NCBI RefSeq assembly: GCF_009914755.1
Contig: NC_060933.1
DNA length: 64,000 nucleotides
Strand: one strand, 5' to 3'
From: the human T2T-CHM13v2.0 reference genome, Homo sapiens
Shown here: positions 1 through 55,022 of the stretch, piece by piece
Layout: each line of letters begins with the position of its first letter
Position numbering within the stretch: the first letter of the stretch is position 1
Notes under the pieces: generated by a model
Seen by the model: only the letters and a program-made list of their open reading frames with translations
The model's database searches: none
Told to the model about the DNA's origin: nothing
Made by a program: the position numbers and the translations under genes

Positions 1-2440
1 ATTAGGCCACTCTTGCCTTGCTATAAATAAATGCCTGAGACTGGGTAATTTGTTTTTAAAGAGGTTTAATTGGCTCACAGTCCTGCCAGCTATATAGCAA
101 GCATAGTGCCAGCATCTGCTTCTGGAGATGCCTCAGGAAGCTGTTTCTCATGGTGGAAGTCAGAGCAGGAGCAAAACAGGAGCTCACATGGCAAAGCAGG
201 AGCAAGAGTCGGGGGGAGTTGCCACACACTTTAAATGATCAGATGTCATGTGAACTCAGAGCAAGAGCTCACTTATCACCAAGGTGATGGCCCCTGTGAT
301 CTGCCCCCATGATCCAAATACTTAACCACCAGGCCCTACCTCCAAAACAGGGATTACCTTTCAACATGAGATTTGGGTAGAGACAAATATCCAAACCACA
401 TCATTTTGCCCTCCGCCCTTGCTCCCACCCAAATCTCCTGTCCTTCTCACATTGCAAAATACAATTATAACTTCCCAATAGTCTCCCAAAATCTTAACTC
501 CTTTCAACATTAACTGAAAAGTCCAAAGTCCAAAGTCTTATTTGAGACAAGGCAAGTCCCTTCAACCTATGAGCCTGTAAAACCGAAAACAGATTATTTA
601 CTCCCCAGATACAATGAGGGCATAGGCATTGGGTGAGCATTTCTGTTTCAAAAGAAAGAAATCAGCCAAAAGAAAGGAGGCGGGGGCAGTCGTTAAGTGT
701 TAAAGCTCTGAAATAACCTCCTCTGACTCCATGTCTCACATTGAGGGCACACTGTTAGAAGGGGTGGACTCCCAAAGCCTTGGGCAGCTCCACCCCTGTG
801 GCTTTGCAAGGTTCAGCCTCCGTGGCTGCTCTCACAAGTTGTTGAGTGCCTGTGGCTTTTCCAGGCACAGGGTCCAAGCTACCAGTGAATCTACCATTCT
901 CAGGTCTGGAGGGCAGTTTCCCCCTTCTCACAGTTCCATTAGGTGGTACCTGACTGGGGACTCTGAGTGGGGGTTCCAATCCCCCATGGTCTCCCTTGGC
1001 ATTGCCCCAGTAGTTCTCTGTGGGGGCTCTGCCCATGCAGCAGGCTTCTGCCTGGGTACCCAGGTTTTCCATACATCCTCTGAAACATAGGGGGAGGGTG
1101 ACAAGTCTCCTTCACTCTTCCACTCTGTGTGCCCACAGGCTTAATGCTACATGGAAGCCACCAAAGTTTATGGCTTGCACTCTCTGAAGCAGTGGCCTGA
1201 GCTATATTTGGGGTCCTCTGAGCCAAGGCTGGAGCTGGAGTGGCCTGGATGTGGGGAGCAGTGTGTTGAGATTGAGCAGGGCAGTGGGGCCTTTGGTCAG
1301 GCCCCTGAAACCATTCTTCCCTTATAGGTCTCAAGGCCTGTGATGGAGGGGCTGCCATGATGGTCTACGAAATGCTTTCACGGCCTGTTCCCCATTGTCC
1401 TGACTTTCAGCACTGGGCTCCCTATTAGTTATGTAAATTTCTCTAGCAAATGGTTGTTCCACAGCCTACTCGAATTCCTCTCCTGAAAAGGCTTTTACTT
1501 TCTCTGCCACATGGCCAGGCTGCACATTTTTCCAACGTTTATTCTCTGCTTACCTTTTAAATAGAAGTTACAACTTTAAGTCATTCCCTTGTTCCCGCAT
1601 ATGAGTATAGGTTGTTAGAAGTAGCTAGGCCACATTGTGAATGTTTTGATGCTTAGAAATTTGTTCTAGCAAATACCTGAAATCATTACTATGAGGTTCA
1701 AAGTTCCACAGATCTCTAGGGCATGAAAAAGTTATTTGCTAAGGTATAACATGTGACCTCTGATCCAGTCCTCAGTAAGTTCCTCATTTTCATCTGAGAC
1801 CATGTCATCCTTGACTCCATTATCTGTATCACTACCAGCATTTTTGTCACAACTATCTGACCAGTCTCTAAGAAGTTCTGAACTTTCCCTCATCTTCCTA
1901 TCTTCTTCTCAGCCCTCCAAATGCTTTCAAACTCTGTGTGTTACCCAGTTCCAAAGTCGTTTCCACATAGTCAGGTATCTTTATAGCAATGCCCCACCAA
2001 TCAGTACCAATTTTCTGCATTAGGCTATTCTTGCGTTGCTATAGATAAACACCTGAGATAGGGTAACTTATAAATGATAGAGGTTTAATGGGCTCATCGT
2101 CCTGCAGGGTTCACAGGATGCATAGTGCCAACATCTGCTTCTGGGGAAGCCTCAGGAAGCATTAACACATGGCAGAAGCTGAATGTGGAACAAGTACTTC
2201 ACATGACTAAAACAGGAGCAAGAGAACTGGGGGTGATGAGGAAGTGTCACACACTTTTAAAGAACCAGATCTCATGTGAACTCAGAGCAAGAGCTTACTT
2301 ATGACCAAGGGTATTGTCCCAAGCCATTAATAGGGCTCTGCCCCCAGGATCCAAACACCTCCCACCAGGCCCCACCTCCAAGATTGGGGATTACATTTCA
2401 ACATGATATTTGAATGGAGACAAATATAAAAACTGTATTA
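1..2440 (-). mobile_element. Complete MaLR element, MSTB-like: LTR 1-403 (first bases cut by window edge), internal region 404-2015, LTR 2016-2440
   Basis: Two similar direct repeats: attaggccactcttgccttgctata...ccaaaccacatca and tgcattaggctattcttgcgttgctata...aactgtatta. They flank a ~1.6-kb MaLR-type internal region and read as the reverse complement of the TGATATGG...CTAATACA consensus. Confidence 0.9.
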
Positions 2441-24970: not shown

Positions 24971-27058
24971 TAAAGTAGTAGGGAAAGTTGAGTTTAGAAT
25001 GAAAAAGATGGTATATCCTTATTAGATCAGTCTTTCTAGTTACAAGAGTCAGAAACAGACATCATAAGTGCTTTTGCATAAATGAAAAGTCTAGGATGAG
25101 TTTTCAGATATGACCTGATCCATCAGCCTCCAATGATTTTTTAAGATTCACCTCTTTCTTATCTCTGAGTTATGCTTACTTCTGTATAGCCTTTACCCTC
25201 AGAGTCCTCTTTATGTAGTGGCCTCTAGCAGAACCCTCTGATATTTTTTTTTCCTCCTCAATTCACTAAGACTGTAGGCTTTTTGTGTTTGGAGTTTTCC
25301 CTTTCTTCCTCCATAGTGAGAAAATCTCCTCCTGGAAAAACACTGGAATAGTTGTAGGATTTACCTCATTCTTTTTTTTCTTGCTGAAATCACAGTCCTG
25401 TCTTGACTACCGTACAATGTCTTAAAACAATTGTTGCAAATCTTGTGCATTATTTTCTAGTTATTTATAATGGCATGTGAGTCATGGAGGAGTTATACTT
25501 TCAAATTTAAAAGCAGAAGTCTGTTTACCCATTTTTAATTGCAATATATTGACATAATAGTTAAACCTGATGAAAAACACCAGAAGTACTGAGACATGCG
25601 TACTTAAAATGTTTAGGCAATGAAGGCCCCTATGCAGGAATTTGCAGGAAAGACAATGGCTTTATTGGTTTATCTTATTAAATGTTAATTACACCTTTGA
25701 AAAATCTCTAATCTAACCTTTTATTTATTACCACCACAGAACCTCCAGTACCACTGCTCAACTCAGATGCACTACGAACAAGTTCTTTGTGATATTTCAG
25801 TGTTCTGTCTTCCTTCAGGCCTTTTCTGTGTAGCTATTGAGTCTTTTTTCCTATTTAAACTAAATTCCCAGGAATCCTTCTAATTAACTCCCATTAACTG
25901 AGGTAAAATGAGAGCCTGTCTCTCTCTCTTATTTAGCTAAAAGGAGCTCATAAGCAATAGTTTATGTTAACATGGTGACTAGACTCATACTTAGAATATG
26001 CATTTGGCGGTGACACTGGGTCAAGGGAAAATTTATGAAAACCCTATTTGCATCTTTGTTTGCATGCAGTGGCCAGTGGCATTTTGGGTCTTATATAGTT
26101 AGGTAAGAGAAGAAGTTGCCCTGAAGATGAGAGTTTGGGTATTTATTCATCACTAATATATAGCATTATTAGATTTTTTTAGTGCGGAGGTAGAAATTTG
26201 TATCTTCTATTCTTAGAAACCTATAGCAGGAAAGAAACCCATTATAGAAACATCTCTCCTATTCTGAGTGGTTAAAAAAATCCATTGTTGAATATAATGG
26301 CCGTAAACTCACAGCTCAACTAATAGAACATCAGGACAGAGCAAATTCCAAAATAATATATTTTATATAAATATAAAATTTGTAAAAATTAAAGCCCGGA
26401 TTGGTAATGATTTAGAGTTGCATATTTGAATAAATATTTTTAAAACGATATGGATTGGCTCACGTACATGGAAAATGCTACCTAAAAATCCTTTGCATCT
26501 AAGCATTGTGTGAAAATAGCAATATTCTTGTCTTGTAGAACATCCTATGACAATATTTAAAATAGTCTGGACTGTGGAGTGATCTGTAAAACTGTCTTAG
26601 GAAAGAAATAAATTATATTAAATTGAACTACAGAAAATTTTAAGGGACTACATCCAATTTGTGGGAAAACATATAACAGTTTAGAGCATTATTAGATCTT
26701 GTATTAAAGCAATATGATCAAGGAACAGGTAAAATATTGAAATATAAATTATTTTGGCTGGAATGGAGGTAACAGAGGTATTTAGTTAAAAAATAATCTA
26801 ACTTGTGCAAATGTAAGCTTTATGTTTAACAGCTGCCATTGGTTCCCAGTTGATAAAGTATATTTAATAAGGCCTACTGTGTGTCAGGACAAATTTCAGA
26901 TATCTCTCAATTATTTTTCTTGTTTTAAACTTCCACATAACACTATGAAGACTTTATTATTATGCTTACTTTTTTACACGTGAAATTTAAGGCTAAGAAA
27001 AATAACTAATGTCACTCTTATTAAACAAACACGTATTGTACAACTCCGGGAAATGTAG

Positions 27059-28030
27059 TGAAAGAGTTCAGTATATGTCACTCCGAAATATTACCTCTGT
27101 ATTAGCCTGTTCTTGTACTACTATAAAAAAATACATGAGACTGGGTAATTTATGAAGAAAAGAGGTTTAACTGGCTCACGGTTCTGCAGACTGTACAGAA
27201 AGCATACTGGCTCCTGATTCTGGGAAGTCCTCAGGAAGTTTCCAATCATGGCAAAAGGCAAAGGGAGAGCCAGGCACTTCACATGGCCAGAGCAGCAGAA
27301 ACACGGAGCGGGAAGGTGCTACACACTTTTCAACAACCAGGTCTCTTGAGAATTCACTCACTATCATGAGTGACAACACCAAAGGGGATGGTGTTAAGCC
27401 ATGAGAACTGCCCCCATGATCCAATTACCTCCCACCAGGCCCCACCTCCAACATTGGGGATTACAATTTGGCATGAGATTTGCGCCGGGACATGGAGCCA
27501 AGCCATATCAATCTCTATGGCATATGACTATTTTGAAGTAAATGCACTTTAAAAATGGCAGGTGCAAAAATAATGCTGATGTTCTTTCCTCTTAAAAGCA
27601 GGAGATAAAATTCTCACATAAAAAATGCCCTCTCTATACCACAAGGAAAACATCATTCTTATCATCAAGGGCAAAAAGTTGAGACTAAGGGACATCTGTA
27701 AACACAAACTTTGTTAAACTTACCCTTACCTTTCTAGTCACTTTTCCACCCAATTAACTCTCTTAACCTAAATCCCTTTGCCTTTTCACATTTTCACAAT
27801 TGACCACTCTTTGTCAAAACCATTACATAAGCATTCAACGCTAACTGCTTCTTTGGGTCTTCATTTGTTTAGGGGATCTTCATTTCTTTATGAAAGCTCT
27901 TGTGTCATGTAAAACTCATGTTAAACAAATGTGCATGCATGTTCCTTGTTAATCTGTCTTATGTCAATTTAATTCTCAAGGCCAGCACAAAACCTTAAAA
28001 TAATAAAGCTAAAAATATGCCTCTACTACA
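27059..28030 (+). mobile_element. MER34-like ERV1 solo LTR interrupted by MSTA
   Basis: tgaaagagttcagtatatgtcactccgaaata... resumes tatggcatatgactattttgaag... and ends ctctactaca. Confidence 0.7.
27098..27510 (-). mobile_element. MSTA-like MaLR solo LTR
   Basis: tgtattagcctgttcttg...gccaagccatatca. TSD acctc (27093-27097) / atctc (27511-27515). Confidence 0.9.
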
Positions 28031-28200
28031 CTGGCATAGTAAAATGAGAACAGGCTTTGAGCAGGGATACAGGACTAGAAAGACATATCCTACTGGCTAT
28101 GTGTCCTTTGTTCAGTTACTTAAATTCTCTGTGCTTATTCAACTTTAAAATGGTTATGAATATAATACTTACCTTCTGTGTTAATGTAAATGTTAGCCAT
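28031..28200 (+). mobile_element. MIR relic
   Basis: ggcatagtaaaatgagaacaggctttgag...tactggctatgtgtcctttgttcagttacttaaattctctgtgctt. Confidence 0.55.
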
Positions 28201-28464
28201 GATCTCTCTCTCTCTTCCCTCTCTTTCTCTCTCTCTCTCATCTAATCAAGCAAAGTATTTGGCCCATTCTAGTTATTCTAAAGGTTATAGTGGACATAGC
28301 TGTTCTTATTATGGTATATTGGCAGGCACTGTATGAAATACATTCCATTTATTATTTAAACAAACTATCTATTTTTGATGATCTGGAAAGACTAAAATGA
28401 TGAGGAACCAAAGCTCAGACAGTACCTTATTTTACTGTCTATTTGGGTAAATAGATAACCTAAA

Positions 28465-30746
28465 TAATATGGTTTGGTTCTGTGTCCCCACCCAAATCTC
28501 ATCTTGAATTATACTCCCACAATTCCCACATGTAAGAGATAATTTGAATCATCGGGGCGGTTTCCCCCATACTGTTCTCATGGTAGTGAATAAGACTCAC
28601 GAGATCTGATAGGATAAGGGGTTTCTGCTTTTGCATCTTCCTCATTTTTCTCTCGCTGCTGCCATGTAAAAAGTGCCTTTCCCATCCCGACATGATTCTG
28701 AGGCTTCCCTAGCCACGTGGAACTCTAAGTCTCATTAAATCTCTTTCCCTTCCCAGCCTTGGGTATGTCTTTATCAGCGGTGTGAAAAAGGACTAATACG
28801 GTAAATTAGTACCAGGAGTTGCTTGTTGCCAAAAAAGATACCCAGAAATGTGGAAACGACTTTGGACCTGGGTATCAGGCCAAGGTTGGAGCAGTGTGGA
28901 GGGCTCAGAAGACAGAAAAAAAATGTGGGAAAGTTTGGAACCTCCTGGAGAGTTGTTGAATGCCTTTGACAAAAATGTTGATAATGATATGAACAAGTCT
29001 AGGCTGAGGTGGTCTCAGATGGAGATTAGGAACTTGTTGAGAACTGGAACAAAGGTGACTCTTGTTATGCTTTAGCAAAGAGTCTGGCGGCATTTTGCCC
29101 CTGTCCTAAAAATGTGTGGAACTTTCAACTTGAGAGAGATGATTTAGGGTATCTGGCAAAAGAAATTTCTAAGCAGCGGAGCATTCATAAAAAGGTGACT
29201 TGGGTGCTGTTAAAAGCATTCCATTTTAAAAGGGAAACAGAGCATAAAAATTCAGAAAATCTGCAGCTTGATAATGCATTAGAAAAGAGAAACACATTTT
29301 TTGAGGAGAAATTCAAGCTGATTGCAGAAATTTGCATAAGTAAAAAGGAGCCAATGTTAATCCCCAAGAGGATGGATAAATGTCTCCAGGGCATGTCATA
29401 GGTCTTCATGGCAGCCTCTCCCATCACAGATCAGGAAACCCAGAAGGAAAAAATGGTTTCCTGTGCCAGGACCAGGGTTCCCATGCTGTTTGCAGCCTAG
29501 GGACTTAGTGCCCTGCATCTCAGCTGCTCCAGCCATTGCTAAAAGGGGCCAAGGTACAGCGTGGCCCATTGTTTCAGAGGGTGTAAGCCCCAAACCTTGG
29601 CAGCTTCCATGTGGTGTTGAGCCTTCAGGTGCACAGAAGTCAAGAACTGAGGTTTGGGATCCTCCACCTAGATTTCAGAAGATGCCTGGTGAAACGCCTG
29701 GATGCCAAGACAAGTTTGTTGCAGGGGCAGAGCCCTCATGGAGAACCTCTGCTAGGGCAGTGCTGAAGGGAAATGTGGAGTCAGAGCCCCCCTACAGAGT
29801 GCTTACTGGGGCACCGTCTAGTGGAGCTCTGAGAAGAAGGCCACCATCCTCCAGACTCCTGAATGGTAGATCCACCAACAGCTTGCACCATGCACCTGGA
29901 AAAGCAGCAGACACTCAATGCCAGCCTGGGAAAGCAGCCAGGAATGGGGGCTATACCTTGCAAAGCCACAGGGGCGGAGCTGCCAAAGACTATGGGAACG
30001 TACCTCTTGCATCAGTGTGACCTGGATGCAAGAGGTGGAGACAAAGGAGATCATTCTGGAGTTTTAGAATTTGACTGCCCCGCCGGATTTCAGACTTGCA
30101 TGGACCCTGTCACTCCTTTGTTTTGGCCAATTTCTCCCATTTGGAACAGCTCCCATTTGGTACAGGTATTTACCCAATACCTGTACCTCCATTGTATCTA
30201 GAAAGTAAGTAGCTTGCTTTTGATTTTACAGGATCATAGGTGGAAGGGACTTGCCTTGTTTTAGATGAGACTTTGGACTGTGAACTTTTTGGTGAATGCT
30301 GAAATGAGTTAAGACTTTAGGGGACTGTTGAGAATGCATGATTGGTTTTGAAATGTGAGGACATGAGATTTGGAGGGGCCAGGGGCAGAATCATATGGTT
30401 TGGCTCTGTGTCCCCACCCAAATCTCATCTTGAATTGTATTACCATAATTCCCACGTATTGTCGGGGGGACCTGGTGGGAGATAATTTGAATCATGAGCG
30501 TGGTTTCCCCCATACTGTTGTTGTGGTAGTGAATAAGTCTCACGAGATCTGATGGTTTTATCAGGGGTTTCCACTTTTGCATCTTCCTCATTTTCTCTTG
30601 CCACTTCCATGTAAGAAGTGCCTTTTGCCTCCCACTATGATTCTGGGGGCCTTCCTAGCCATGTGGAACTGTAAGTCCAATTAAACCTATTTTTCTTCTC
30701 AGCCTCAGGTATGTCTTTATCAGCAGTGTGAAAATGGACTAATACA
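28465..30746 (+). mobile_element. Full-length THE1A-like MaLR: 5' LTR 28465-28800, internal region 28801-30390, 3' LTR 30391-30746
   Basis: Paired LTRs (atatggtttgg...ggactaatac) and purine tract ggaggggccaggggcagaa before the 3' LTR. Perfect 5-bp TSD CTAAA at 28460-28464 and 30747-30751. Confidence 0.95.
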
Positions 30747-30826
30747 CTAAACCAATGCAATTATTTTTACACTGGTTTAGATTAAGAGATATCTTAGGTT
30801 AAGGGACAATACTATAAAGATACATC

Positions 30827-31238
30827 TACAGAGATATATTTTGGGGTGATATATTCCAAACTCTTTCACCACATTTCCTGGAGTTGTGCATTGTTTGTTT
30901 TAATGAGAGTGTGACAATGGTAATTTTTCTTAGCCTTAACTTTCATGTATAAAAAAATAAACAATAATAGGATCTTTTAGTATCATGTGGAAGTTTAAAA
31001 CAAGAACAAAAATTGAAAGCTATCAGAGAGCATTATTTTTGCACCTGCCATTTTTAACATGCATTTTCTTCAAAATACTCAATATGCCATAAAGGTTAAT
31101 ATGGTGTGGTTCTGTGTCCCAGCTCAAAACTCACATCAAATTGTATTCTCCAATGTTGGAGGCAGGGCCTAGTGGGAGGTAATTAGATCATGGGGGTGGT
31201 TTCTCATGGTTTAACACCATCCCCCTTGGTGTTGTCAC
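30827..31238 (-). repeat. Two-segment inverted local duplication: 30827-~31024 = revcomp of ~26899-27101; ~31029-31238 = revcomp of ~27370-27578
   Basis: Manual alignment, e.g. atgtggaagtttaaaacaaga vs tcttgttttaaacttccacat, and gcattatttttgcacctgccattttta vs taaaaatggcaggtgcaaaaataatgc. Flanked by acatcta at 30822-30828 and 31237-31243. Confidence 0.92.
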
Positions 31239-32845
31239 ATCTATTATCTTATTTTACACTGTTAGACAAATAAAGTAGGGTTATTAATTCAAAATCATAC
31301 AGAAACTGATGTTTCTAGTAGTGTGTGGCTTTAAACTAGAGATCAATGTTATCGTACATTCTGGGAATAGACAAAAAAATTGCCAGGAGAATGGGCAGAA
31401 CAGATGTTCTGCATGAAACAATGTTAATTAGCTATAACATTCCCTCTGTCTCTCTTATCAGCAGTTGGCCCCCATTCTATACCTTACAGATTCCGACCCA
31501 AATCAGGTTTTGTCAACTTTGTAAAAAAAAAAAGCAAAAAGATGAGATATTTATGATATATTTTAATTTGTGAAAACAAAAATAGTTCTTGTTCAATGCT
31601 TAATTTTGTTAGATAACATTGATTTGTAGTTATTGCTTTAATATTTTATTATGAAAATTACTTTTCAATAGTAAAAGAATCAAGTTAAAACCAATGATAA
31701 AATGCAGATATAAATGTGTGTTTTAATCAAAACAAATATCTTAGGACTCTGATAATTAAACACACTATTTTATATACATTCATTTTCACTTGTATTCATT
31801 TTTTTAACATATGAACAAAAGTATCTTAAAATGTTTTGTGTTAGTCTGAGACAAAGTGTAAATGTCTATCTAGATATTCACACTTTTGCTGCAATTGCAT
31901 TCTGTAATGGCTTTAAACTTTATTCTTTAGAAATGTAATAGTGTTTCAAATTTAATCACTTTTGTTCTGCTGTTCTGCAGAATTACACAGAAATATGCTT
32001 ATGCTTAAGCTAAAGATCACATTTTCTTATGAATGTTTTTAACATTTTTATTTACTGAGAGATAAATAGGTTCAAATGTATCTTCTGTATACAGTTTTGG
32101 TTTGGTCTTTTAAAAATATTTTATTTAGAAAAACAACTATTTTAAGTAAATAAATTAACTGGTTATTATGTCTTCAATGTTTTTATTTATGTCATATTAT
32201 AATTAAATATCTTGCTTGTGAGAAATGTCCTTACTAAAATATCTACTAATAGTGCAACATTTTAGAGCTCAGAAGGTACTTTCAATTTAATCTAGTCTAG
32301 TCTTAAAGTAATTATATGAAAATAGTAACATTCAAGAAAACCATATGACATGGGCTTCTGGAATAGCTGGATTATGATTTAGACTAGGGGTGGCAAGCTC
32401 AAATTCTTCAGTGGTCAGAAAGGAAATATAAACCTGTGAGACAAACAGCGAAAGCAATGGGGCTGTGGCTTGTCTTTAGGAAGTGAAGAGTGCATGCCAA
32501 CTGAAATGCACTGAAATCTATTAGCAAACAAACAAAAAATATAGACTATCCAAGCAGGCAAGCAACATAAACTGAGGCAGTCATTCTTAATAATGCTGCT
32601 GGCCTGATTTGGCTATGAGTTTGAGAGCCGTGACTTAGATCTTCCACTGACCACTCCAAGTCTCTTTCCAATATAACCCAGTTTCTAATGTTAGATAAGG
32701 AAATGTACTAGTTTTACTTAAAAGACTAGACCTAAAAAAACTTGCCAAATAGGTTTTGGAGACACCATATACACAGAGTACCGTTTACTTACTTTCGAAT
32801 TTTGATAATGTTAAACTTAACCTGAGACCTGTGGTTTCTAAAGAG

Positions 32846-54249: not shown

Positions 54250-54619
<370 letters not shown>

Positions 54620-54645
54620 TAGACAAAATCAAGATGTTTATTTGT

Positions 54646-55022
<377 letters not shown>

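What the first reader, a model, noticed from the sequence alone, without database searches (positions are those of the whole stretch)
30822..31243. Fossil multi-jump template-switch scar: two inverted copies of nearby DNA bracketed by a 7-bp direct repeat
Seen: 30827-~31024 is the reverse complement of ~26899-27101 (flanking DNA, the MER34 start and 4 nt of MSTA). ~31029-31238 is the reverse complement of ~27370-27578 (part of MSTA, its TSD and MER34). Both pieces carry TE-TE junctions, so they cannot be independent TE insertions. Their order is the opposite of a single inversion, and ~270 bp between the sources is skipped. acatcta flanks the insert and overlaps each template by 2 nt, and an ATC overlap lies at the internal junction. 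The copy reads acctt at the MSTA TSD, where the source reads atctc and the other TSD reads acctc, so both descend from acctc. Many scattered mismatches imply an old event. Inference: polymerase-theta or MMBIR/FoSTeS-type repair copied local DNA twice. Repeat annotation would hide this as unrelated fragments. If transcribed, each arm could fold back on its source around the THE1A.
Basis: partly seen in the sequence, partly recalled or inferred. Interest (0 to 1): 0.8.

Follow-up and report, generated by a model that had tools for sequence, protein, structure and literature searches.

The report
Old two-piece inverted copy of nearby DNA
A roughly 410-base insert in a gene-poor part of human chromosome 9 is an ancient patchwork of two flipped copies of DNA lying a few thousand bases away, most likely left by a DNA polymerase that hopped between templates; it is a clean example of a known kind of mutation, not a new one.

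Summary
Window 30827-31027 is the reverse complement of 26896-27101 (168 of 198 aligned bases identical). Window 31029-31238 is the reverse complement of 27370-27577 (180 of 208). The order is permuted relative to a simple inversion, 268 bp between the sources is skipped, and homology ends sharply. ACATCTA flanks the insert, which random site pairs match 0.6-0.8% of the time.

A whole-genome search found piece A and the non-LTR tail of piece B only at these two places. Piece A carries 163 bp of unique flank and piece B carries an LTR/older-repeat junction with its target-site duplication, so both came from this locus, not from separate repeat insertions.

Divergence (58 of 406, K2P about 0.16) equals that between the two LTRs of the intervening THE1-like element. 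It is also not resolvably younger than the LTR insertion in the source.

Best reading: one DNA-templated insertion with three template switches (MMBIR/FoSTeS-like), returning 7 nt behind the point of departure. Copying from a circular or tandem intermediate is not excluded. RNA-mediated origin is disfavoured.

The internal "ATC overlap" is ambiguous, and 2-nt microhomologies are weak evidence. The empty-site test in other primates could not be run. This is a known kind of event, of modest interest.

The parts
26896..27101 (+). Source piece A: unique flank (26896-27058), first ~39 bp of an older interspersed repeat (27059-27097, including the left target-site copy acctc at 27093-27097) and the first 4 nt (tgta) of the inserted solo LTR
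   Evidence: Local alignment. Only two places in the genome. The repeat start at 27059-27067 comes from 4 relatives, L014-L017.
27098..27510 (+). Target-site duplication is acctc at 27093-27097 and atctc at 27511-27515
   Evidence: Sequence. More than 2000 first-look candidates in the genome. Relatives of the older repeat align continuously once this LTR is removed.
27102..27369 (+). 268 bp of the LTR lying between the two templates; absent from the copy
   Evidence: Alignments end at 27101 and begin at 27370. Only 8-9 of 30 bases match beyond those ends.
27370..27577 (+). Source piece B: last 141 bp of the LTR, its right target-site copy, and 62 bp of the older repeat
   Evidence: Alignment with 180 of 208 identical. 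The 70-bp tail forms a unique pair in the genome.
27516..28030 (+). It runs uninterrupted through 27577, so no rearrangement remains at the source
   Evidence: BLAST against relatives L013-L017. 149 first-look candidates genome-wide.
28464..30746 (-). Full-length THE1-like MaLR element between source and insert. LTRs are at about 28464-28800 and 30390-30746. Target-site duplication CTAAA is at 28459-28463 and 30747-30751. LTR-LTR difference is 43 of 339 bases
30822..30828 (+). Left copy of the 7-bp direct repeat ACATCTA. Its last 2 nt (TA) also match the template at 27100-27101
30827..31027 (+). Copy A', the reverse complement of 26896-27101
   Evidence: 168 of 198 identical, 11 gap columns.
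31028..31028 (+). Internal junction: one G unassigned in the simplest parse. The alternatives are an ATC/GAT overlap plus a 4-nt AGAG indel, or piece A extending to about 26894 with mismatches
   Evidence: sequences read directly.
31029..31238 (+). Copy B', the reverse complement of 27370-27577
   Evidence: 180 of 208 identical, 2 gap columns.
31237..31243 (+). Right copy of ACATCTA. Its first 2 nt (AC) also match the template at 27370-27371

Best explanation
One ancient germline event inserted about 408 bp of DNA-templated sequence at a site that originally read ...aaagat-ACATCTA-ttatc.... A free or stalled 3' end that had just made ACATCTA annealed through its terminal TA to the + strand of nearby DNA at 27100-27101. 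It copied leftwards to about 26896. It then switched to about 27577, some 680 bp away on the same template strand, and copied leftwards to 27370. Finally it returned to its own template through AC, 7 nt behind the point of departure, which duplicated ACATCTA. The mirror-image path on the other strand is equally possible.

That is three template switches of a low-processivity polymerase: a small-scale MMBIR/FoSTeS-type templated insertion. The source stayed intact.

Shown: the origin of both pieces from this locus, their orientation and permuted order, the sharp ends, the 7-bp duplication, and the age. Inferred: the replicative mechanism, the direction of synthesis, and the use of the 2-nt overlaps.

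The event dates to about the time the solo LTR entered the source and the THE1-like element entered between source and insert. If the THE1-like element came later, the templates lay only about 1.0-1.4 kb from the target.
For: - Both pieces are the best genome-wide matches of each other outside the multi-copy LTR part.
- Piece A is mostly unique DNA. Piece B crosses an insertion-specific LTR/repeat junction with its target-site duplication.
- The copy keeps the ancestral C at target-site-duplication position 2, which the source later lost.
- Homology stops abruptly at all four ends, with 3-9 of 30 identities beyond them.
- The 7-bp repeat flanks the whole patchwork, not each piece, and random site pairs match this 0.6-0.8% of the time. 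That fits one event that returned 7 nt behind its start.
- The two pieces are equally diverged (30 of 198 and 28 of 208).
- The source is retained, so this was a copy-number gain and not cut-and-paste.
- The features match the MMBIR description in the abstract of PMC2621351: discontinuous and inverted duplications, 2-5 bp junction microhomology, and multiple template switches.
Against: - No empty site was seen. The flanks are unique in the human genome, so there is no paralogous empty site, and no other primate genome was available.
- Two-nucleotide overlaps are common by chance. They are also uncertain after 14% divergence.
- The internal junction has no clear microhomology.
- The permuted B-A order is what a head-to-tail (circle or tandem) junction would give, so a single copy from such an intermediate explains the order with fewer independent choices.
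- Nothing in the sequence identifies the polymerase or shows that replication, not break repair, was involved.
Confidence: 0.6

Rival explanations
1. The template was a head-to-tail intermediate. This could be a small circular DNA of about 682 bp excised or copied from 26896-27577, or a transient tandem duplication of that segment on the sister chromatid or homologue. One continuous stretch, 27370-27577 joined to 26896-27101, was then copied or ligated into the target in inverted orientation.
For: The order of the pieces in source orientation is B then A, exactly a circular permutation. The insert would span one head-to-tail junction and needs only two further junctions. Small circles and their reintegration are discussed in reviews, seen only as listings and abstracts.
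Against: No tandem junction remains at the source. The older repeat runs uninterrupted through 27577 and the flank before 26896 is single-copy. A ligated linearised circle would be expected whole, yet 268 of 682 bp are missing. Simple ligation does not predict a 7-bp target duplication whose ends overlap the template. Copying from a circle by an invading 3' end would still be a template-switch event.
Confidence: 0.2
2. Two separate double-stranded fragments released from the nearby region (for example from the sister chromatid) were captured and ligated by end joining into a staggered double-strand break. Fill-in of 7-nt overhangs then produced the ACATCTA duplication.
For: Ends are sharp and microhomology is at most 2 nt at the outer junctions. 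There is possibly one untemplated base at the internal junction. The source is intact.
Against: Both fragments share one orientation and come from within 680 bp of each other, which serial copying explains more simply than random capture. The 2-nt overlaps sit exactly at the first and last bases of the 7-mer. No independent evidence for a staggered break exists.
Confidence: 0.1
3. RNA-mediated origin: a back-spliced (circular) or chimeric transcript of the source region was reverse-transcribed and inserted by LINE-1 machinery, with ACATCTA as the target-site duplication.
For: The pieces are in permuted order, as at a back-splice junction. There is a 7-bp flanking duplication. The source has cag just before 26900.
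Against: Neither end of the insert, on either strand, carries a poly(A) tail. The B end is followed by GA, not GT, in the simplest parse. The expected back-splice sequence is not what is observed. The outer ends at 27101 and 27370 are not splice or known transcript ends. The target is not a TTTT/AA-like site (read; the LINE-1 endonuclease preference is recalled).
Confidence: 0.03
4. Coincidence of independent repeat insertions or chance similarity.
For: The LTR part of piece B alone is not diagnostic. All 29 other LTR copies tested are closer to the source LTR than the copy is. The copy ranks about 31st of 40 scored hits.
Against: Piece A is mostly unique sequence with only two places in the genome. 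Piece B continues at 91% identity across the LTR end and target-site duplication into the older repeat. E-values are 1e-40 to 1e-60 genome-wide.
Confidence: 0.01

Closest known systems
MMBIR / FoSTeS complex rearrangements (Hastings, Ira and Lupski 2009, PMC2621351; abstract read)
   Same: Discontinuous copies of nearby DNA, inverted orientation, more than one template switch, 2-nt overlaps at the outer junctions, source retained.
   Different: Far smaller (two tracts of about 200 bp) than the kb-Mb clinical events. It is a fixed evolutionary fossil, not a de novo disease allele. No low-copy repeat is evident at the endpoints. The internal junction has no clear microhomology.
Microhomology-mediated templated insertions (MMB-TI) detected by MMBSearch (Osia et al. 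2021, PMC8421209; passages read)
   Same: An insertion that is an inverted copy of a nearby template, flanked by microhomologies. Multi-template events are described.
   Different: That tool looks for insertions from 10 bp up to read length, with templates within 100 bp. Here the tracts are about 200 bp each and the templates are 3.5-3.9 kb away today (about 1.0-1.4 kb if the THE1-like element is younger).
Short-range template-switch mutations (Loytynoja and Goldman 2017, PMC5453318, listing and abstract only; Loytynoja 2022, PMC9435742, passages read)
   Same: A leave-copy-return model in which the nascent strand copies the opposite strand nearby and returns. Adjacent double events are reported (62 and 32 bp).
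   Different: Those events are mostly tens of bases and replace sequence in place; the longest reported was 318 bp. Here there are two tracts of about 200 bp from kb distance, a net insertion, and a 7-bp duplication.
Polymerase-theta-mediated end joining with templated insertions (recalled; not read here beyond a mention in PMC8421209)
   Same: Microhomology-primed copying of nearby sequence, sometimes in several rounds and in reverse-complement orientation.
   Different: By recollection, typical tracts are a few to a few tens of nucleotides copied from within tens to hundreds of bases of the break. Two 200-bp tracts from 1 kb or more away fit poorly.
Reintegration of small extrachromosomal circular DNA (reviews PMC9527254 and PMC11660679; listing and abstracts only)
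   Same: The permuted order of the segments is what a circle junction gives.
   Different: Only 414 of the 682 bp of the putative circle are present. The flanking duplication overlaps the template ends. No independent trace of a circle exists.

Membership tests
MMBIR/FoSTeS-type templated rearrangement | Inserted or duplicated segments are copies of other genomic DNA, with the source retained | tested here: met
   Both pieces align to an intact local source. They are unique pairs in the genome.
MMBIR/FoSTeS-type templated rearrangement | Complexity: more than one template switch, with discontinuous and/or inverted segments | tested here: met
   Two inverted tracts in permuted order, with 268 bp skipped.
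MMBIR/FoSTeS-type templated rearrangement | Microhomology of 2-5 bp at the junctions | tested here: inconclusive
   TA and AC (2 nt each) at the outer junctions. The internal junction is ambiguous, with 0-3 nt depending on the parse. After 14% divergence the original junction bases cannot be known.
MMBIR/FoSTeS-type templated rearrangement | Origin at a broken or stalled replication fork, with low-processivity synthesis | not testable with these tools
   No sequence feature reports this. It would need experimental systems or de novo events.
MMBIR/FoSTeS-type templated rearrangement | [quoted passage not shown] | tested here: not met
   Self-BLAST of the window shows no low-copy repeat at the endpoints other than the event's own products. 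Only interspersed repeats are nearby. This feature was listed for the clinical series and is not essential to the mechanism.
LINE-1-mediated retrocopy (including circular-RNA-derived) | Poly(A) tail at the 3' end next to the target-site duplication | tested here: not met
   Neither end of the insert on either strand carries an A or T run.
LINE-1-mediated retrocopy (including circular-RNA-derived) | Segment ends at splice sites (GT-AG) | tested here: not met
   The B end is followed by GA in the simplest parse. The observed junction differs from the expected back-splice sequence.
Independent transposable-element insertion | The sequence belongs to a multi-copy family and ends at family termini | tested here: not met
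   Piece A has only two places in the genome. Piece B starts inside the LTR and crosses its end into another repeat.

The most novel reading that the evidence does not exclude
The insert is a germline fossil of a small circular DNA, or of rolling copying from one. A circle of about 682 bp made from 26896-27577 would have served as template or was reinserted, with the B-A junction at 31027-31029 being the preserved circle junction. That would make it a dated example, tens of millions of years old, of circle-derived sequence becoming fixed in a primate genome.
Probability: 0.15. Interest if true: 0.55.

Novelty: new member of a known kind. Interest (0 to 1): 0.3.

Why it matters
This is a tidy natural example of a multi-switch templated insertion that can be proved from a single genome. 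The copied DNA carries one-off markers: a unique flank, a repeat-in-repeat junction, and its target-site duplication.

Events of this size fall between two surveyed classes: two tracts of about 200 bp with templates 1-4 kb away. The short-range template-switch surveys cover tens of bases, with the longest reported at 318 bp, and MMBSearch looks for templates within 100 bp. The clinical rearrangements are kb to Mb in size.

Repeat annotation would probably label the pieces as unrelated repeat fragments. I did not test that. A systematic search for such marked copies could measure how often this process has shaped primate genomes.

The locus itself has no annotated gene and no sign of function.

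Tried and rejected
- Paralogous empty site: both flanks of the insert (30747-30828 and 31237-31600) are single-copy in the genome, so no paralogue can stand in for an orthologous empty site.
- LTR part as proof of origin: rejected. All 29 other LTR copies tested are closer to the source LTR than the copy is.
- Ordering the event against the THE1-like insertion: 58 of 406 against 43 of 339 differences are not distinguishable.
- Ordering against the LTR insertion: the three-point estimate gives a shared stem of about 0.008 (0.071 minus 0.063) on 139 sites, which is indistinguishable from zero. The comparison copies were chosen by similarity to the source, which biases the branch lengths.
- RNA or back-splice origin: no poly(A) and no GT-AG.
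- Known structured RNA: Rfam gave 0 matches at gathering score in 26000-32000.
- RNA fold-back: co-folding each arm with its source gives -197 and -307 kcal/mol, against -69 and -110 for shuffled partners. This only restates the sequence similarity and is no evidence of transcription or editing.
- One paper look-up failed on a too-short search term and was repeated with valid terms.

Full report
**What is there**

Reading the sequence, a repeat scan, local alignments and a self-BLAST all show two reverse-complement matches between the finding and DNA 3.5-3.9 kb upstream.

- Piece A: 30827-31027 is the reverse complement of 26896-27101. 168 of 198 aligned bases are identical, with 22 transitions, 8 transversions and 11 gap columns.
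- Piece B: 31029-31238 is the reverse complement of 27370-27577. 180 of 208 are identical, with 21 transitions, 7 transversions and 2 gap columns.

On the + strand rc(A) comes before rc(B). A plain inverted copy of 26896-27577 would give the opposite order. The 268 bp between the templates (27102-27369) is missing from the copy. Homology stops abruptly: in the 30 nt beyond each of the four ends only 9, 8, 8 and 3 bases match, which is chance level.

**Anatomy of the source**

- Region 27511-27760 belongs to a multi-copy interspersed repeat, with 149 first-look candidates and 40 scored at 72-85% identity.
- I removed 27098-27515 and aligned the remainder to five relatives (L013-L017). Four of them (L014-L017) align continuously from 27059-27067 across the cut into 27516 and on to about 27860-28030. 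The fifth, L013, covers only 27590-28023.
- So an older repeat starts at about 27059 and was split by a 413-bp element at 27098-27510. That element begins tgta and ends ca, with flanking copies acctc and atctc.
- The 413-bp element is itself multi-copy, with more than 2000 first-look candidates.
I could not verify the family names because no repeat library was available.
- Piece A is therefore 163 bp of non-repeat flank, plus 39 bp of the older repeat, plus 4 nt of the LTR. Piece B is the last 141 bp of the LTR, plus its right target-site copy, plus 62 bp of the older repeat.

**Is the origin local?**

The window's own 3.1-Gb assembly could be searched.

- Copy A' and source A with extra flank each found only two places in the genome: themselves and each other.
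- The 70-bp non-LTR tail of B' likewise found only itself and 27510-27577, at 90% identity.
- The LTR part is not diagnostic. The copy ranks about 31st of 40 scored hits to the source LTR. All 29 other LTR copies examined are closer to the source than the copy is.
- The proof of origin rests on the unique flank and on continuity across the insertion-specific LTR/repeat junction.
- A further detail fits. At the right target-site copy the source reads atctc and the copy reads acctt, while the left target-site copy reads acctc. The copy therefore preserves an ancestral C that the source later lost.

**Flanking repeat and junctions**

ACATCTA lies at 30822-30828 and 31237-31243. The last two bases of the left copy (TA) and the first two of the right copy (AC) also match the templates at 27100-27101 and 27370-27371.

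A flanking exact repeat of 7 bp or more, within +-3 nt of two sites 411 bp apart, occurred in 1245 of 200000 random pairs across the window. It occurred in 841 of 100000 pairs in the local 20 kb. That is about 0.6-0.8%. The repeat brackets the whole patchwork, which argues for one event and against later trimming.

The internal junction is ambiguous, with three possible parses:

1. B ends at 27577 and A at 26896, leaving one unassigned G at 31028.
3. A extends to about 26894 with mismatches.

Two-nucleotide overlaps are weak evidence in themselves. After 14% decay the original junction bases are uncertain.

**Age**

- Source and copy differ at 58 of 406 aligned sites (p = 0.143; my K2P from the counts is about 0.16). 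The two pieces do not differ from each other (30 of 198 against 28 of 208).
- A full-length THE1-like element lies between source and insert at 28464-30746, in minus orientation, with target-site duplication CTAAA. Its two LTRs differ at 43 of 339 sites (p = 0.127 +- 0.018). That is statistically the same, so I cannot say whether it was present when the event happened.
- If the THE1-like element came later, the templates were only about 1.0-1.4 kb from the target.
- Pairwise three-point distances on the 139-bp LTR part, using 29 other genomic copies, give a source branch of 0.058, a copy branch of 0.093, and outgroup-plus-stem of 0.071. The mean outgroup terminal branch is 0.063. The shared stem is therefore about 0.008, not resolvably above zero.
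- The event was therefore not resolvably later than the LTR insertion. The outgroups were picked by similarity to the source, so the branch asymmetry is biased.
- With commonly used neutral rates (recalled, about 1.5-2.2e-9 per site per year), 0.08 per lineage suggests very roughly 35-55 million years. This is an inference, not a measurement.

**Mechanism**

The source is intact. The older repeat runs uninterrupted through 27577. The insert is therefore a copy, not a moved fragment.

The simplest path is one 3' end that left the target after ACATCTA, copied two nearby tracts of the same template strand, and came back 7 nt behind its departure point. This is the signature described for MMBIR/FoSTeS: discontinuous and inverted duplications, 2-5 bp junction microhomology, and multiple switches (abstract of PMC2621351).

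It also resembles microhomology-mediated templated insertions and short-range template-switch mutations. Those surveys cover smaller events. MMBSearch looks for templates within 100 bp (PMC8421209). The longest short-range event reported was 318 bp, with an example of two adjacent 62- and 32-bp events (PMC9435742).

From recalled knowledge, polymerase theta usually copies much shorter tracts, so I rank it below MMBIR-like synthesis. Nothing here tests that ranking.

**Rivals**

- The permuted order B-A is also exactly what a head-to-tail junction gives. That means a 682-bp circle, or a transient tandem duplication of 26896-27577, serving as template or as insert. I cannot exclude it and give it 0.2. 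Against simple ligation of a circle: 268 bp are missing, and the target duplication overlaps the template ends.
- Capture of two free fragments by end joining is possible (0.1). It explains the shared orientation and proximity less well.
- An RNA or back-splice route is disfavoured (0.03). There is no poly(A), no GT-AG, and the junction sequence is not the expected one.
- Independent repeat insertions or chance are refuted.

**Function**

None is indicated. No gene is annotated in the window, according to the hub's annotation note. Rfam gives 0 matches in 26000-32000.

The arms could pair as RNA: -197 and -307 kcal/mol, against -69 and -110 for shuffled partners. That follows from the similarity alone. 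Transcription and editing could not be examined.

**Context within the window**

In a self-BLAST of the 64-kb window, 22 local HSP pairs (15 kb or less apart, 80 bp or longer) were listed. Only two have a single partner: piece A and the THE1-like LTR pair. The rest belong to multi-copy repeats.

**Verdict**

The interpretation as a one-off, multi-switch templated insertion is the best reading, though not proven. This is a clean, old member of a known class of mutation, of modest interest. The decisive test, an empty site with a single ACATCTA in species that lack the insert, needs other primate genomes that were not available here.

Noticed in passing
window 28459-30751: Full-length THE1-like MaLR element in minus orientation (28464-30746), with 5-bp target-site duplication CTAAA. 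Its LTRs differ at 43 of 339 sites. The left LTR lacks about 15 bp that the right one has (near 30457-30471).
   Followed up: partly
window 1-396 and 2019-2433: Another direct pair of MaLR-type LTR-like sequences (75% over 420 bp, about 1.6 kb apart). This is probably a second full-length element, cut by the window start.
   Followed up: no
window 54318-54909: A 599-bp stretch that is its own reverse complement at 79% identity. It is probably two multi-copy short repeats (Alu-like, 7-9 partners in the window) in inverted arrangement about 120 bp apart.
   Followed up: no
window 27595-28125: The RefSeq 'enhancer' feature lies entirely inside the tail of the older interspersed repeat (27516 to about 28030). 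It begins 18 bp after the end of source piece B, and none of it was copied into the insert.
   Followed up: no
window 27370-27510 vs 31099-31238: On the LTR part, the copy branch (0.093) looks longer than the source branch (0.058) in three-point distances. With 139 sites, and outgroups chosen by similarity to the source, this is not significant.
   Followed up: partly
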